The position numbers were made by a program, and so were the translations under genes. A stretch of 64,000 bases of DNA from an uncultured bacterium (GTDB lineage: Bacteria; Chlamydiota; Chlamydiia; Chlamydiales; FEN-1388): assembly GCA_964487845.1 (NCBI GenBank), contig CAZASK010000009.1, positions 5 through 64,004 of the forward strand, written 5' to 3'. Each line of letters starts with the position of its first letter. Position 1 is the first letter of the stretch. This document shows, piece after piece, positions 56,720 through 58,533 of the stretch. The notes beneath the pieces are model-generated. The model made no database searches and was not told the origin of the DNA. It saw nothing but the letters and a program-made list of their open reading frames with translations.

Positions 56720-57658
56720 GTGATTAAGAGATGCTGGTTCATTATTTTGCTTTTGTTACTCAACACACAAATATTTTCTGTATCGCCACCCAAGAAGCCA
56801 GCTTCATGGGATAGCTGGCAATATCATGAAAAAATTAGATGGCGAGCGCTTCACCTTGATCCTCGTATTCCTTATGTCCCTCTTGTAGATAAGATACAAG
56901 TAAAAGAGGTGGTGCGAGGCGAAATGAAAACTGCGCAGACTTTCTTTATTACAGACGATCCTTCTCAAATTTTCATGGAAGAGCTTCCAAGTAGTTTTGT
57001 GATGAAGTCTAATAATGCATCGAGCAGGGGAATACTGGTAAAGAATGGTATTGTCTTAGCAACAAAAAAACGAGAATCAGATTTTCAGCCAACCGTATGT
57101 ACAAATGAATTTTTACGCTCTTATGCTGAAAAATGGCTTAATACTCCTTATGCTGCAAATCACGAAAAGCAATACGCTCTTATACACTCTATGATTTTGT
57201 TTGAAGAGTATATTGAAGATATAACAACAGAGATAGAGCTCTATTGTTTTAATGGAAAAGTGCGCATGATTGGCTTATTTTTTTCATCTGGCTATACAAA
57301 CAATCCAGAGATTTCTTACTATGATGCAAACTGGAATTTGTTTGATGTCGTTCATCCTTTGTTTTCGATGAGAACAAACGTAATAGAAAAGCCAGATTAT
57401 ATAGATCCTCTGATTGCATTTGCAGAGCGCTTTACAAAAAAAATAGATCATGTGCGCATCGACTTTTTTGTAAAAGGTGAAGATATCTATTTGGGAGAGT
57501 TTACATTTACAACAGCAGGGGGATGTAAGCTGGATCATCTTAATGCAATGCTTAGTGAGTATTGGGATTTTCCTAGCTCAAAACGCTCATATGTAAACCA
57601 TCATCTTAACAATGCCCTAAAGCGAGCGAATTGGTTGAACTCAAATCGAAGGAAATAA
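56720..57658 (+). CDS. TupA-like ATP-grasp protein with a signal peptide
   Basis: LPSSFVMKSNNASSRGILV and later IDHVRIDFFV..GEDIYLGEFTF match the ATPgrasp_TupA pattern. N-terminus is MIKRCWFIILLLLLNTQIFS. GTG start. Confidence 0.65.
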   Translation: MIKRCWFIILLLLLNTQIFSVSPPKKPASWDSWQYHEKIRWRALHLDPRIPYVPLVDKIQVKEVVRGEMKTAQTFFITDDPSQIFMEELPSSFVMKSNNASSRGILVKNGIVLATKKRESDFQPTVCTNEFLRSYAEKWLNTPYAANHEKQYALIHSMILFEEYIEDITTEIELYCFNGKVRMIGLFFSSGYTNNPEISYYDANWNLFDVVHPLFSMRTNVIEKPDYIDPLIAFAERFTKKIDHVRIDFFVKGEDIYLGEFTFTTAGGCKLDHLNAMLSEYWDFPSSKRSYVNHHLNNALKRANWLNSNRRK

Positions 57659-57660
57659 AT

Positions 57661-58533
57661 ATGCAGCGTCTTTTCATGTGTTTGTGGTTTTTTATCTGTT
57701 GTCAAAGTGTAGTAGCAAATGAAAGGGAGATTTCAGTTGCGGCTATTTTTCGTGATGAAGCGCCCTATTTAAAAGAATGGATCGACTATCACCGATCAGT
57801 TGGTGTTGAATATTTCTGGCTCTATGACGATATCAGCAAAGACAACTTCAGAGAGGTCTTGCAGCCATATATTGAAGAAGGCGTCGTGGAGGTCATCGAC
57901 TGGTCTGTAGCAAGAGAGAGAATAAAAACATGGCCCTCTATTCAAGTTGAAGCGTATAGGCATGCGATTAAAGAAGCTGTAGGAAAAACAAAATGGCTTG
58001 CTCTGATAGATACAGATGAGTTTATTCTACCGATGACTGACACCTCGATTCAAAGTTGTCTTGCCAATCACTATCCACAAGCGCAGGCAGTCTATATGCA
58101 ATGGCGAATGTTTGGAACAAGTGGTGTTTGGCTTTCGGATAATGAATCCATGCTTGATCAACTTACCTATTGTTCAGAGAAAAATCATCCTTGGAACCGT
58201 GTCGGTAAAAGTATCGTACAGCCAGCGAGTATATTGATCGATAGAATTTGGTATAATCATCACTTTCCATTAGCGGACTCAGATTGTTATGCAGACGGAT
58301 CCGGAAAAAAAATTCCGATGGTTCATGATGACTTATATGGGCCAGAACATAGCGACAAGTATATCCGAATCAATCATTACTTTTTTCGTGATGAAAAGTA
58401 TTACCGTGAAACAAAAATTCCAAGAAAGCTTGAGCGTAATTTATCGATTGATGAGCTGACAGATTTGCATACAGTGTGTAATAAAAAACGAGATTTTACA
58501 ATCACCAATTTTTTAAAGAAAAGCAATTTGTAA
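57661..58533 (+). CDS. glycosyltransferase family 92 (DUF23-like) with a signal peptide
   Basis: AAIFRDEAPYLKEWIDYHRSVGVEYFWLYDD...WLALIDTDEF (DxD) is typical of GT92/GT2-like enzymes. N-terminus is MQRLFMCLWFFICCQSVVA. Confidence 0.65.
   Translation: MQRLFMCLWFFICCQSVVANEREISVAAIFRDEAPYLKEWIDYHRSVGVEYFWLYDDISKDNFREVLQPYIEEGVVEVIDWSVARERIKTWPSIQVEAYRHAIKEAVGKTKWLALIDTDEFILPMTDTSIQSCLANHYPQAQAVYMQWRMFGTSGVWLSDNESMLDQLTYCSEKNHPWNRVGKSIVQPASILIDRIWYNHHFPLADSDCYADGSGKKIPMVHDDLYGPEHSDKYIRINHYFFRDEKYYRETKIPRKLERNLSIDELTDLHTVCNKKRDFTITNFLKKSNL

What the first reader, a model, noticed from the sequence alone, without database searches (positions are those of the whole stretch)
56720..58533. Signal-peptide-bearing TupA-like ATP-grasp and GT92 glycosyltransferase gene pair
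The two genes are adjacent, with a 2-nt gap. One belongs to a family tied to teichuronopeptide and capsule amidoligation. The other belongs to GT92, a family best known from eukaryotic Golgi galactosyltransferases. Both have textbook signal-like N-termini (MIKRCWFIILLLLLNTQIFS, MQRLFMCLWFFICCQSVVA). Chlamydiae are not known for capsules, so this may be a host-glycan- or surface-protein-modifying module. A possible substrate is the Thr-rich collagen-like protein at 46184-47026.
Basis: inference. Interest (0 to 1): 0.55.

Follow-up and report, generated by a model that had tools for sequence, protein, structure and literature searches.

The report
Signal-peptide-bearing amidoligase and glycosyltransferase operon
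An environmental chlamydia carries a tightly coupled gene pair for a sugar-adding enzyme and an ATP-driven amide-forming enzyme that both begin with export signals, which is odd because such enzymes normally need ATP and activated sugars found only inside the cell.

Summary
ORF1 (56720-57658, +) is a TupA-like ATP-grasp (PF14305, 8.9e-25). ORF2 (57661-58533, +) is a GT92 GT-A glycosyltransferase (PF01697, 1.1e-21) whose best fold match is poplar GalS1. They are 2 nt apart, with an AAGGAA ribosome-binding site inside the end of ORF1.

Both N-termini look like cleavable Sec signal peptides: a basic n-region, a 10-11 residue h-region, and small residues at -3/-1. This feature is conserved. All 13 chlamydial-clade ATP-grasp loci have it, and none of about 50 TupA-like proteins from other phyla do. 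Among the closest GT92 relatives, 109 of 120 have it.

The ATP-grasp clade is small (about 35 sequences, Chlamydiota MAGs only). In 7 of 11 verified distinct loci it sits beside or within about 3 kb of a glycosyltransferase. The families vary (GT92, GT2, GT11/GT17, GT25), and the adjacent ones also have hydrophobic N-termini. The exact ATP-grasp/GT92 pair is kept only in the nearest relatives.

Best reading: an exported glycan-extension plus amidation module, a split analogue of C. jejuni Cj1438, working outside the cytoplasm on host-derived ATP and UDP-sugar. Export, substrates and acceptor are inferred. The collagen-like substrate idea stays speculative. I rate it a new variant of known kinds, of moderate interest.

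The parts
56422..56719 (.). Intergenic region between the divergent MFS transporter gene (55075-56421, -) and ORF1; presumed promoter region of the pair
   Evidence: ORF map and sequence. The consensus sigma-70 scan found no + strand promoter-like site here, so the promoter is inferred, not shown.
56720..57658 (+). ORF1: TupA-like ATP-grasp amidoligase gene (312 aa, GTG start)
   Evidence: PF14305, 8.9e-25. AF2 model pLDDT 92.9. Fold matches to Ddl, RimK, LysX and MdnB and to the TupA-like ATP-grasp of Mimiviridae ChoanoV1, E 4.9e-17, TM 0.69. Invariant K96, E162, R246, D248 and E260.
56720..56779 (+). Signal-peptide-like N-terminus of ORF1 (aa 1-20: MIKR / CWFIILLLLL / NTQIFS, predicted cut before VSPP)
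   Evidence: The h-region is 10 aa, and the equivalent segment is present in all 13 chlamydial-clade loci and absent from about 50 TupA-like proteins of other phyla. The cleavage site is inferred from the -3/-1 rule.
57649..57654 (+). AAGGAA Shine-Dalgarno-like site for ORF2, inside the 3' end of ORF1
   Evidence: Sequence read directly. It lies 7 nt before the ATG at 57661, and the ORF1 stop TAA is at 57656-57658.
57661..58533 (+). ORF2: GT92-family GT-A glycosyltransferase gene (290 aa)
   Evidence: PF01697, 1.1e-21, and PF13704, 1.3e-15. AF2 model pLDDT 94.9. Best PDB fold match is the GT92 enzyme GalS1 (8d3t), E 8.6e-12, TMq 0.59.
57661..57717 (+). Signal-peptide-like N-terminus of ORF2 (aa 1-19: MQR / LFMCLWFFICC / QSVVA, predicted cut before NERE)
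   Evidence: Of the 120 closest homologues, 109 have an N-terminal h-region of at least 7 aa. The median is 10 aa and only 5 reach 18 aa.
58009..58020 (+). DxD(E) metal/nucleotide-sugar binding motif D117-T-D119-E120 of ORF2
   Evidence: D117, D119 and E120 are invariant in 36 aligned homologues.
46184..47026 (-). Context only: BclB-related collagen-like (GXT repeat) protein with signal-like N-terminus; candidate acceptor, not shown to belong
   Evidence: Pfam Collagen, 9.6e-7. TIGR03721 exosporium glycoprotein BclB-related, 5.1e-59.
60148..61752 (+). Context only: GH3 NagZ-like beta-N-acetylhexosaminidase with hydrophobic N-terminus, one gene away from the pair
   Evidence: PF00933, 7.2e-88. 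NF003740, 210.8 bits against a cut-off of 207.
37864..39454 (+). Context only: a second coupled pair of glycan-tailoring enzymes with signal-like N-termini (Methyltransf_24 at 37864-38595; polysaccharide pyruvyl transferase at 38600-39454)
   Evidence: PF13578, 4.6e-18, and PF04230, 3.1e-15. N-termini MFMLQWICIFLFYVTASLCA|QD and MNIKYFRYCTFPFFITLFTCVAQLCHS|ED.

Best explanation
The two genes form one translationally coupled operon. It encodes two Sec-exported enzymes that build and decorate the same extracytoplasmic glycoconjugate.

ORF2 is an inverting, metal-dependent GT-A glycosyltransferase of family GT92. It transfers a sugar from a nucleotide-sugar donor, by family analogy a hexose such as galactose, onto a glycan or glycoprotein acceptor.

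ORF1 is a TupA-type ATP-grasp amidoligase. It activates a carboxylate, by family analogy the C6 carboxylate of a uronic acid in that glycan, as an acyl-phosphate, and couples it to an amine such as an amino acid or amino alcohol.

Functionally this is a split version of the C. jejuni Cj1438 GT2/ATP-grasp fusion.

The unusual step is location. Both proteins carry cleavable signal peptides, so the chemistry would take place in the periplasm or the lumen of the host vacuole. ATP and UDP-sugars there would derive from the host.

Shown: the families, folds, catalytic motifs, gene coupling, and conserved signal-like N-termini. Inferred: export, donor, amine, acceptor and compartment.
For: **Enzyme identity**
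- HMM assignments are well above the Pfam cut-offs.
- Both AF2 models are confident.
- Fold matches are to ATP-grasp ligases and a viral TupA-like protein for ORF1 and to the GT92 enzyme GalS1 for ORF2.
- Catalytic residues are invariant.

**Coupling**
- The gap is 2 nt, with a Shine-Dalgarno-like site inside ORF1.
- The same gene order, with an 8-nt overlap, occurs in L066.

**Glycan context of the ATP-grasp clade**
- GT92, GT2 and TOD1_MUCI70 neighbours in L005.
- GT2 five nucleotides upstream in L063.
- GT11, GT17 and GT11 in L071.
- A GT25-methyltransferase fusion in L067.

**Export signal**
- The hydrophobic N-terminus is present in all 13 chlamydial-clade ATP-grasp loci and in none of about 50 TupA-like proteins from other phyla.
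- Median h-region is 10 aa in both families. None of the 35 ATP-grasps and 5 of the 120 GT92s reach 18 aa, so these look like signal peptides rather than membrane anchors.
- Neighbouring glycosyltransferases in relatives also have such N-termini.
- As an internal control, the window's GT9 heptosyltransferase-like LOS enzyme has none.

**Precedents**
- Cj1438 combines a GT2 domain with a TupA-like ATP-grasp that amidates GlcA (PMC11800379).
- In C. trachomatis a secreted glycosyltransferase uses imported host UDP-glucose in the vacuole lumen (PMC4829429).
Against: - No validated signal-peptide predictor was available, and there are no experimental data. Export and cleavage rest on heuristics.
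- ATP-grasp and Leloir GT-A enzymes normally act in the cytoplasm, so export requires unusual co-substrate availability.
- The secreted glycogen enzymes in the C. trachomatis precedent use type 3 secretion, not Sec.
- The exact pairing is narrow. GT92 orthologues occur without the ATP-grasp, and the ATP-grasp occurs without any glycosyltransferase nearby in L002, L003, L061 and L070.
- No uronic-acid nucleotide-sugar gene was seen beside the pair.
- No promoter-like site was found upstream, and transcription is untested.
Confidence: 0.45

Rival explanations
1. This is conventional cytoplasmic-face glycan synthesis. The short hydrophobic N-termini are uncleaved membrane tethers, or have no function. 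Both enzymes work at the inner leaflet of the inner membrane on a lipid-linked LOS, O-antigen-like or capsule-like intermediate, as TupA-like enzymes and GT-A transferases do in other bacteria.
For: - The TupA-like family is typically embedded in surface-polysaccharide loci and lacks export signals elsewhere.
- ATP, UDP-sugars, SAM and PEP are cytoplasmic metabolites. Yet a methyltransferase and a pyruvyl transferase in the same window show similar N-termini. This could mean a shared membrane-tethering device rather than export.
Against: - The h-regions are about 10 aa, too short to span a membrane.
- The basic residues lie N-terminal to the h-region (MIKR-, MQR-). By the positive-inside rule this puts the catalytic domain outside.
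- The c-regions obey the -3/-1 rule.
- The classic LOS-core GT9 enzyme of the same genome has no such segment.
- No Wzx/Wzy, ABC-exporter or initiating phosphoglycosyltransferase gene lies beside the pair.
Confidence: 0.25
2. These are host-directed effectors. After Sec export the enzymes leave the bacterium, by type 2 secretion or vesicles. They then modify host glycans or proteins in the vacuole membrane, host cytosol or host secretory pathway, where ATP and nucleotide sugars are plentiful.
For: - The pair lies in an accessory, effector-like stretch of the window with WD40, ankyrin, LRR and PMP-like genes.
- The glycosyltransferase families clustered with the ATP-grasp in relatives (GT92, GT11, GT17, GT25, TOD1_MUCI70) are mostly Golgi/ER families in eukaryotes (family knowledge).
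- TupA-like ATP-grasps also occur in giant viruses of protists.
- A 36%-identical relative sits on a contig that looks giant-virus-like.
Against: - There is no evidence of secretion beyond the periplasm.
- There is no recognisable host-targeting domain.
- The best-characterised TupA-like enzyme, Cj1438C, acts on a bacterial capsular polysaccharide, and the family as a whole sits in bacterial surface-polysaccharide loci.
- Neighbour variability fits tailoring of the bacterium's own surface equally well.
Confidence: 0.15
3. The adjacency is incidental. The two enzymes act on different substrates and are merely neighbours in a variable region. The ATP-grasp could be a protein-modifying ligase, as reported for Klebsiella CfmP, rather than a glycan amidoligase.
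For: - The pairing is not conserved beyond close relatives.
- CfmP, a TupA-like member, acts through a fimbrial protein and not through polysaccharides.
Against: - The 2-nt gap, the internal Shine-Dalgarno-like site, and recurrence of the same order with an overlap in L066 all indicate co-expression.
- Seven of 11 verified distinct ATP-grasp loci have a glycosyltransferase adjacent or within about 3 kb.
Confidence: 0.1

Closest known systems
Cj1438 of Campylobacter jejuni NCTC 11168 (GT2 domain fused to a TupA-like ATP-grasp amidoligase; PMC11800379)
   Same: It combines a GT-A glycosyltransferase with a TupA-like ATP-grasp in one functional unit. The ATP-grasp amidates the C6 carboxylate of glucuronate in a surface polysaccharide.
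   Different: - Here there are two genes instead of one fusion.
- The transferase is GT92, not GT2.
- Both proteins carry signal-peptide-like N-termini, which Cj1438-type and about 50 other TupA-like proteins lack.
- No capsule export genes lie nearby.
- The substrates are unknown.
TupA / WemR-type ATP-grasp amidoligases (Pfam PF14305)
   Same: The HMM, the fold and the catalytic residues all match. The genes also occur frequently beside glycosyltransferase genes.
   Different: - The chlamydial clade is separated by a large score gap: 426-534 bits against at most 192 bits with the clade HMM.
- It has a PPxKPxxWDxW...WRGxxLDPRIP N-terminal motif.
- It has an insertion of about 14 residues.
- It has an N-terminal signal peptide.
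GT92 galactosyltransferases (poplar/Arabidopsis GalS1, C. elegans GALT-1)
   Same: The Pfam family matches, the best structural match is GalS1, and the DxD motif is conserved.
   Different: - Eukaryotic members are type II Golgi proteins with a transmembrane anchor and a stem (family knowledge).
- Here a roughly 19-aa signal-like segment abuts the first beta-strand, with no stem.
- Sequence identity to GalS1 is 12-13%.
- Donor and acceptor are unknown.
Chlamydia trachomatis luminal glycogen synthesis (secreted GlgA using host UDP-glucose; PMC4829429)
   Same: It is a precedent for a chlamydial nucleotide-sugar-dependent glycosyltransferase acting outside the bacterial cytoplasm on host-supplied donor.
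   Different: - Those enzymes are type 3 secretion substrates without Sec signal peptides.
- The glycosyltransferase belongs to a different family.
- No ATP-grasp is involved.
Bacillus BclA/BclB collagen-like exosporium glycoproteins
   Same: The window encodes a BclB-related collagen-like GXT-repeat protein (TIGR03721). Such repeats are O-glycosylated in Bacillus (my own knowledge).
   Different: - The gene is 10 kb from the pair.
- No rhamnose or anthrose biosynthesis genes were seen.
- The link to the pair is untested.

Membership tests
Pfam PF14305 ATPgrasp_TupA | Profile HMM match above the gathering threshold | tested here: met
   88 bits against a cut-off of 25, E 8.9e-25, covering profile positions 1-223 of 241.
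Pfam PF14305 ATPgrasp_TupA | ATP-grasp fold | tested here: met
   AF2 pLDDT 92.9. Foldseek hits to Ddl, RimK, LysX and MdnB, E 1e-6 to 1e-5. Hit to the TupA-like ATP-grasp of Mimiviridae ChoanoV1, E 4.9e-17, TM 0.69/0.73.
Pfam PF14305 ATPgrasp_TupA | Conserved ATP/Mg-binding residues (Lys; Glu-Glu; Arg-x-Asp; Glu) | tested here: met
   K96, E162, R246, D248 and E260 are invariant, and E163 nearly invariant, in 31 sequences that include two distant TupA-like members.
Pfam PF14305 ATPgrasp_TupA | Gene neighbourhood of surface-glycan biosynthesis genes | tested here: met
   A glycosyltransferase is adjacent or within about 3 kb in 7 of 11 verified distinct clade loci.
Pfam PF14305 ATPgrasp_TupA | ATP-dependent amidation of a sugar carboxylate | not testable with these tools
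   This needs an enzyme assay. It has been shown only for Cj1438C (PMC11800379).
Pfam PF14305 ATPgrasp_TupA | Cytoplasmic protein without an export signal (the usual state of the family) | tested here: not met
   A hydrophobic signal-like N-terminus is present in this clade only. It does not bar membership, but it marks a variant.
CAZy GT92 / Pfam PF01697 | Profile HMM match above the gathering threshold | tested here: met
   78 bits against a cut-off of 23, E 1.1e-21.
CAZy GT92 / Pfam PF01697 | GT-A fold closest to a GT92 structure | tested here: met
   Top PDB match is GalS1 (8d3t/8d3z), E 8.6e-12, TMq 0.59. It ranks ahead of SpsA and other GT2 enzymes.
CAZy GT92 / Pfam PF01697 | DxD metal-binding motif | tested here: met
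   D117-T-D119-E120 is invariant in 36 homologues.
CAZy GT92 / Pfam PF01697 | Beta-1,4-galactosyltransferase activity with UDP-Gal | not testable with these tools
   This needs an enzyme assay. At 12-13% identity to GalS1, specificity cannot be transferred.
CAZy GT92 / Pfam PF01697 | Type II membrane topology with transmembrane anchor and stem (eukaryotic members) | tested here: not met
   The h-region is 11 aa, there is no stem, and the first beta-strand begins about 5 residues after the predicted cleavage site.
Sec / signal peptidase I signal peptide | Basic n-region, 7-15 residue h-region, small residues at -3/-1 | tested here: met
   ORF1: MIKR / CWFIILLLLL / NTQ-I-F-S|V. ORF2: MQR / LFMCLWFFICC / QS-V-V-A|N. 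This is a heuristic reading, not a trained predictor.
Sec / signal peptidase I signal peptide | Conservation of the signal in orthologues | tested here: met
   29 of 35 ATP-grasp clade proteins have it, and the rest are N-terminally truncated calls. 109 of 120 GT92 homologues have it.
Sec / signal peptidase I signal peptide | Demonstrated export and cleavage | not testable with these tools
   This needs SignalP or DeepTMHMM, reporter fusions, or N-terminal mass spectrometry.
Cj1438-type glycosyltransferase + amidoligase module | A uronic-acid supply and an amine-donor pathway encoded with the module | tested here: inconclusive
   None lies within +/-5 kb of the pair; the neighbours are MFS, an unknown 516-aa protein and GH3. 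A myo-inositol oxygenase, which produces glucuronate, lies 4.4 kb upstream, but no link is shown.
BclA/BclB-type collagen-like glycoprotein system | Collagen-like acceptor gene linked to its glycosyltransferases | tested here: inconclusive
   The BclB-related gene is 10 kb away in the window. An unrelated collagen-like gene lies 1 kb from the ATP-grasp in L062. None was seen in the other loci.

The most novel reading that the evidence does not exclude
Environmental chlamydiae run a Golgi-like glycan assembly line outside their own cytoplasm. A set of Sec-exported enzymes would work in the periplasm or host vacuole lumen on co-substrates taken from the host, building or tailoring a surface or luminal glycoconjugate. 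The set would include GT92, GT2, GT11, GT17 and GT25 transferases, a dedicated ATP-grasp amidoligase clade, and perhaps the signal-bearing methyltransferase and pyruvyl transferase in the same window. This ATP-grasp clade would then be, to my knowledge, the first ATP-grasp ligase adapted to act outside the cytoplasm.
Probability: 0.3. Interest if true: 0.75.

Novelty: new variant of a known kind. Interest (0 to 1): 0.45.

Why it matters
ATP-grasp ligases and Leloir-type glycosyltransferases are regarded as cytoplasmic enzymes in bacteria, because their co-substrates do not exist in the periplasm. A conserved, lineage-specific signal peptide on both suggests otherwise for chlamydiae. So do similar N-termini on neighbouring glycan-tailoring enzymes, while the LOS-core transferase of the same genome lacks one. 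Because these bacteria live bathed in host metabolites and already import host ATP, they may have moved part of glycan synthesis outside the cell.

If true, this would extend the idea of the chlamydial vacuole as a metabolically active compartment. So far that idea rests on luminal glycogen synthesis in C. trachomatis.

It would also offer candidate enzymes for the poorly understood glycosylation of chlamydial surface proteins.

If the N-termini turn out to be mere membrane tethers, the pair is an ordinary accessory glycan-decoration module.

Tried and rejected
- **PDB sequence searches** with ORF2 and with the ATP-grasp profile found nothing meaningful. Fold searches were needed instead.
- **NCBIfam** has no model for either protein.
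- **Literature searches** for GT92 or Glyco_transf_92 in chlamydiae, and for chlamydial glycosyltransferases with signal peptides, returned nothing relevant.
- **The promoter/terminator scan** gave counts no higher than shuffled sequence and no + strand promoter upstream of ORF1.
- **The metagenome contig scan** added only one new chlamydial-clade locus, L071. The viral contig scan found only one distant relative.
- **Searching with the giant-virus-like relative P0175** found no close or named homologues, so the origin of the clade stays open.
- **Inc-type membrane protein:** rejected, because the hydrophobic segment is about 10 aa and not a bilobed 40-aa domain.
- **Lipoprotein:** rejected, because there is no conserved lipobox cysteine.
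- **Tat substrate:** rejected, because there is no twin-arginine motif.
- **Orthology of the two collagen-like genes** (window and L062) was tested and not supported.
- **The pair as cargo of an island at tRNA-Asn** was considered. The only repeat found, 57 nt, brackets just the toxin-antitoxin cassette and not the pair.
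Full report
**1. What is in the sequence**

Two co-directional ORFs occupy 56720-58533 on the + strand.

- **ORF1** (56720-57658) starts at the first start codon after an in-frame stop, a GTG, and encodes 312 aa.
- **ORF2** is best started at the ATG at 57661 (290 aa). That start matches the N-termini of its orthologues.
- **Junction:** the ORF1 stop (TAA, 57656-57658) is followed by two bases and then the ATG. An AAGGAA Shine-Dalgarno-like site lies 7 nt upstream, inside ORF1. This is the usual signature of translational coupling.
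- **Downstream end:** ORF2 ends 7 nt before the end of a convergent 516-aa gene of unknown family.
- **Upstream end:** a 298-nt gap separates ORF1 from a divergent MFS transporter gene.
- The consensus promoter/terminator scan was uninformative.

**2. Family assignment**

ORF1 is a TupA-like ATP-grasp.
- It matches Pfam PF14305 ATPgrasp_TupA at 88 bits, against a cut-off of 25.
- Sequence searches of the PDB were empty.
- A confident AlphaFold model (pLDDT 92.9) matches ATP-grasp ligases such as Ddl, RimK, LysX and MdnB.
- In the viral library it matches a protein named TupA-like ATPgrasp from Mimiviridae sp. ChoanoV1 (E 4.9e-17, TM 0.69).

ORF2 is a GT92 glycosyltransferase.
- It matches PF01697 Glyco_transf_92 at 78 bits, against a cut-off of 23, and also PF13704.
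- Sequence searches of the PDB were empty.
- Its model (pLDDT 94.9) is closest to poplar GalS1, the top-ranked PDB match and a GT92 enzyme (E 8.6e-12, TMq 0.59). It ranks ahead of SpsA and other GT2 enzymes.

Catalytic residues are conserved in both. In ORF1, K96, E162, R246, D248 and E260 are invariant and E163 is nearly invariant. In ORF2, the D117-x-D119-E120 motif is invariant. Both look like active enzymes.

**3. The N-termini**

Both proteins begin with a short basic stretch, a 10-11 residue hydrophobic core and a polar end with small residues at -3/-1:
- ORF1: MIKR / CWFIILLLLL / NTQIFS|VSPP
- ORF2: MQR / LFMCLWFFICC / QSVVA|NERE

This is the anatomy of a signal peptidase I substrate. 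The core is too short for a membrane-spanning anchor, and the charge distribution would put the catalytic domain outside. That last step follows from the positive-inside rule and is inference.

The feature is conserved.
- **ATP-grasp clade:** 29 of 35 proteins have it, and the other six are visibly truncated gene calls. The median core is 10 aa and none reaches 18.
- **GT92 homologues:** 109 of the 120 closest have it, and only 5 reach 18 aa.
- **Clade specificity:** all 13 chlamydial-clade ATP-grasp loci have a strongly hydrophobic segment just upstream of a conserved PPxKPxxWDxW motif. None of about 50 TupA-like proteins from Nitrospira, Bacteroidales, Burkholderiales, archaea and other groups does.
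- **Nearest outgroups:** relatives that share the clade's N-terminal motif also lack it. These are P0174, P0180, P0182, P0186 and the giant-virus-like P0175. The signal therefore looks like a gain within the chlamydial lineage.
- **Internal control:** the window's GT9 heptosyltransferase-like LOS enzyme begins MRFLIVKTSAFGD, with no hydrophobic segment.

No trained signal-peptide predictor was available, so export itself remains a prediction.

**4. Distribution**

- **Origin of the window:** it is chlamydial. It encodes a Chlam_PMP repeat protein. The closest named ATP-grasp relatives are Parachlamydiaceae, Chlamydiae and Simkaniaceae MAGs.
- **ATP-grasp clade size:** it is small and sharply bounded. 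There are 35 sequences at 46-65% identity, followed by a drop to 30%.
- **Score gap:** the clade HMM scores 426-534 bits inside the clade and at most 192 bits outside.
- **Representation in large collections:** the clade has one representative, plus one divergent signal-bearing relative, among 1.84 billion cluster representatives. It occurs in three genomes among 185,579 species representatives.
- **GT92, by contrast:** it is a large chlamydial expansion. The search returned 983 homologues, and the named ones among the best 120 are nearly all Chlamydiota MAGs. Several paralogues occur on single contigs.

**5. Gene neighbourhoods**

Eleven distinct ATP-grasp clade loci had verifiable neighbourhoods.

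| Locus | Neighbourhood |
|---|---|
| Window | ATP-grasp then GT92, same strand, 2-nt gap |
| L066 | ATP-grasp then GT92, same strand, 8-nt overlap |
| L005 | Divergent GT92, then GT2, TOD1_MUCI70 and DUF2608 |
| L063 | GT2 five nucleotides upstream |
| L071 | Divergent GT11, GT17, an unassigned 230-aa protein, GT11 |
| L067 | GT25-methyltransferase fusion 0.5 kb away |
| L062 | Thioredoxin-like gene, a collagen-like gene, and a GT2 about 3 kb away |
| L002, L003, L061, L070 | No glycosyltransferase nearby |

A probable twelfth locus (P0003/P0039, on contigs of identical length) could not be checked.

The adjacent glycosyltransferases also start with hydrophobic segments. GT92 orthologues at 48-61% identity occur without the ATP-grasp.

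Two conclusions follow. The ATP-grasp clade is a glycan-pathway enzyme with changing transferase partners. The specific ATP-grasp/GT92 operon is a recent arrangement confined to close relatives.

**6. Mechanism**

The best-characterised TupA-like enzyme is the C-terminal domain of C. jejuni Cj1438. It forms an amide on the C6 carboxylate of glucuronate in the capsule and is fused to a GT2 transferase (PMC11800379). The window pair is the same logic in split form.

The most economical reading is that ORF2 adds a sugar and ORF1 amidates a carboxylate in the same glycan.

The unusual element is the predicted export of two enzymes that need ATP and a nucleotide sugar. For chlamydiae this is less paradoxical than for free-living bacteria.
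- One relative's locus encodes a TLC-type nucleotide transporter. Such transporters import host ATP from outside the cell (my own knowledge).
- In C. trachomatis, secreted bacterial glycogen synthase uses host UDP-glucose that SLC35D2 brings into the vacuole lumen (PMC4829429).

I put this reading at 0.45. The rivals are membrane-tethered cytoplasmic-face enzymes (0.25), effectors acting on host molecules (0.15) and unrelated neighbours (0.10).

A second coupled pair in the same window also carries signal-like N-termini. It consists of a Methyltransf_24 enzyme and a polysaccharide pyruvyl transferase. This widens the pattern, but it cuts both ways. It fits either an exported tailoring toolkit or a common tethering device.

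**7. The proposed collagen-like substrate**

- **For:** the protein at 46184-47026 has a signal-like N-terminus and 16 GXT-type triplets. Its C-terminal domain scores 199 bits against TIGR03721, BclB-related exosporium glycoprotein. Members of that family are glycoproteins in Bacillus (my own knowledge).
- **For:** in L062 a different collagen-like gene (GPT/GYT repeats, interrupted by an assembly gap) lies about 1 kb downstream of the ATP-grasp.
- **Against:** the two collagen-like proteins share only the repeats. The window gene is 10 kb from the pair. No other locus has such a gene, and no background frequency could be estimated.

The idea is reasonable but not supported beyond a hint.

**8. 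Novelty and verdict**

Both families are known, and NCBI already labels relatives as GT92 or ATP-grasp amidoligase proteins. I could not find three things described in the searchable literature:
- a chlamydia-specific, signal-peptide-bearing clade of TupA-like ATP-grasps;
- its recurrent clustering with signal-bearing glycosyltransferases of families that are mostly Golgi/ER enzymes in eukaryotes;
- the implication that ATP- and nucleotide-sugar-dependent glycan chemistry may occur outside the chlamydial cytoplasm.

All functional statements are inference from sequence. I rate it a new variant of known kinds, with interest 0.45.

Noticed in passing
window 53925-53981 and 54770-54826 (with tRNA-Asn 53856-53929 and ORFs 54014-54316 and 54303-54644, - strand): A 57-nt direct repeat (88% identical) starts 5 nt inside the 3' end of tRNA-Asn. 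It brackets a HigB/HigA-like toxin-antitoxin pair (Gp49-like plus HI1420-type antidote). This looks like a small cassette integrated at the tRNA.
   Followed up: partly
window 37864-38595 and 38600-39454 (+): A second coupled pair (4-nt gap) of glycan-tailoring enzymes with signal-like N-termini. The first is a Methyltransf_24 methyltransferase and the second a polysaccharide pyruvyl transferase. Both need cytoplasmic co-substrates, SAM and PEP (family knowledge). Methyltransf_24 genes also lie near the ATP-grasp or GT92 in L003, L064 and L067.
   Followed up: partly
window 51439-52341 (+): A myo-inositol oxygenase (PF05153, 1.2e-98), a mostly eukaryotic enzyme that makes glucuronate. Its internal start gives a signal- or lipobox-like N-terminus, MLKKILLGAYCFSGAMSNQVNA|C. 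It is followed by an MFS sugar-transporter gene. It could supply uronic acid, but no link was tested.
   Followed up: no
window 46184-47026 (-): A collagen-like GXT-repeat protein whose C-terminal domain is BclB-related exosporium glycoprotein (TIGR03721, 5.1e-59). This is a spore-surface protein family of Bacillus turning up in a chlamydia.
   Followed up: partly
window 44924-46159 (+): A protein with a signal-like N-terminus and an unassigned N-terminal domain of about 300 aa. That domain contains a DLGGGGLKTAL motif reminiscent of sugar-kinase/actin-fold ATPases (by eye only). Ankyrin repeats follow at the C-terminus.
   Followed up: no
window 60148-61752 (+): A GH3 NagZ-like beta-N-acetylhexosaminidase (534 aa, longer than the 340-position model). 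It has a hydrophobic N-terminus, MYKFTFIIIFLHYLAMPNHVIS, and lies one gene from the pair.
   Followed up: partly
window 41665-43047 (-), 43273-44787 (+), 48042-48578 (+), 14929-17985 (+): A run of eukaryote-like or effector-like genes. They are a CDC20/Fizzy-type WD40 protein, a Chlam_PMP/beta-helix protein, an LRR protein and a 1018-aa LRR plus ankyrin protein.
   Followed up: no
L071 322-3993 (- strand) next to the ATP-grasp at 4355-5131: A cluster of GT11 (x2), GT17 and an unassigned 230-aa protein. At least three of these begin with hydrophobic segments. They are divergently transcribed from a chlamydial-clade ATP-grasp.
   Followed up: partly
L072 9145-9945 (protein P0175): A 266-aa relative (36% identity) shares the clade's KPxxW...WRCKNP motif but has no signal peptide. 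It sits on an AT-rich contig with an NAD-dependent DNA ligase, an AAA ATPase and many orphan genes, which looks like a giant virus. No close homologues were found.
   Followed up: partly
L002 4000-6090 and L003 11384-13468: A signal-bearing pro-kumamolisin-type (sedolisin) peptidase gene lies within 0.5-4 kb of the ATP-grasp in two distantly related genomes (a Parachlamydiaceae and a Simkaniaceae MAG) that lack a glycosyltransferase neighbour.
   Followed up: no
L064 6835-7890 and the P0051 locus 6922-7971: GT92 orthologues that lack the ATP-grasp partner are instead divergently paired with a lactonase-like beta-propeller gene in two separate contigs. The L064 copy begins with a signal-like segment.
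   Followed up: no
L062 9839-11126: A collagen-like GPT/GYT-repeat gene with a hydrophobic N-terminus is broken by a run of N (assembly gap) and was left uncalled in the public gene table. It lies between a thioredoxin-like gene and small ORFs, downstream of the ATP-grasp.
   Followed up: partly
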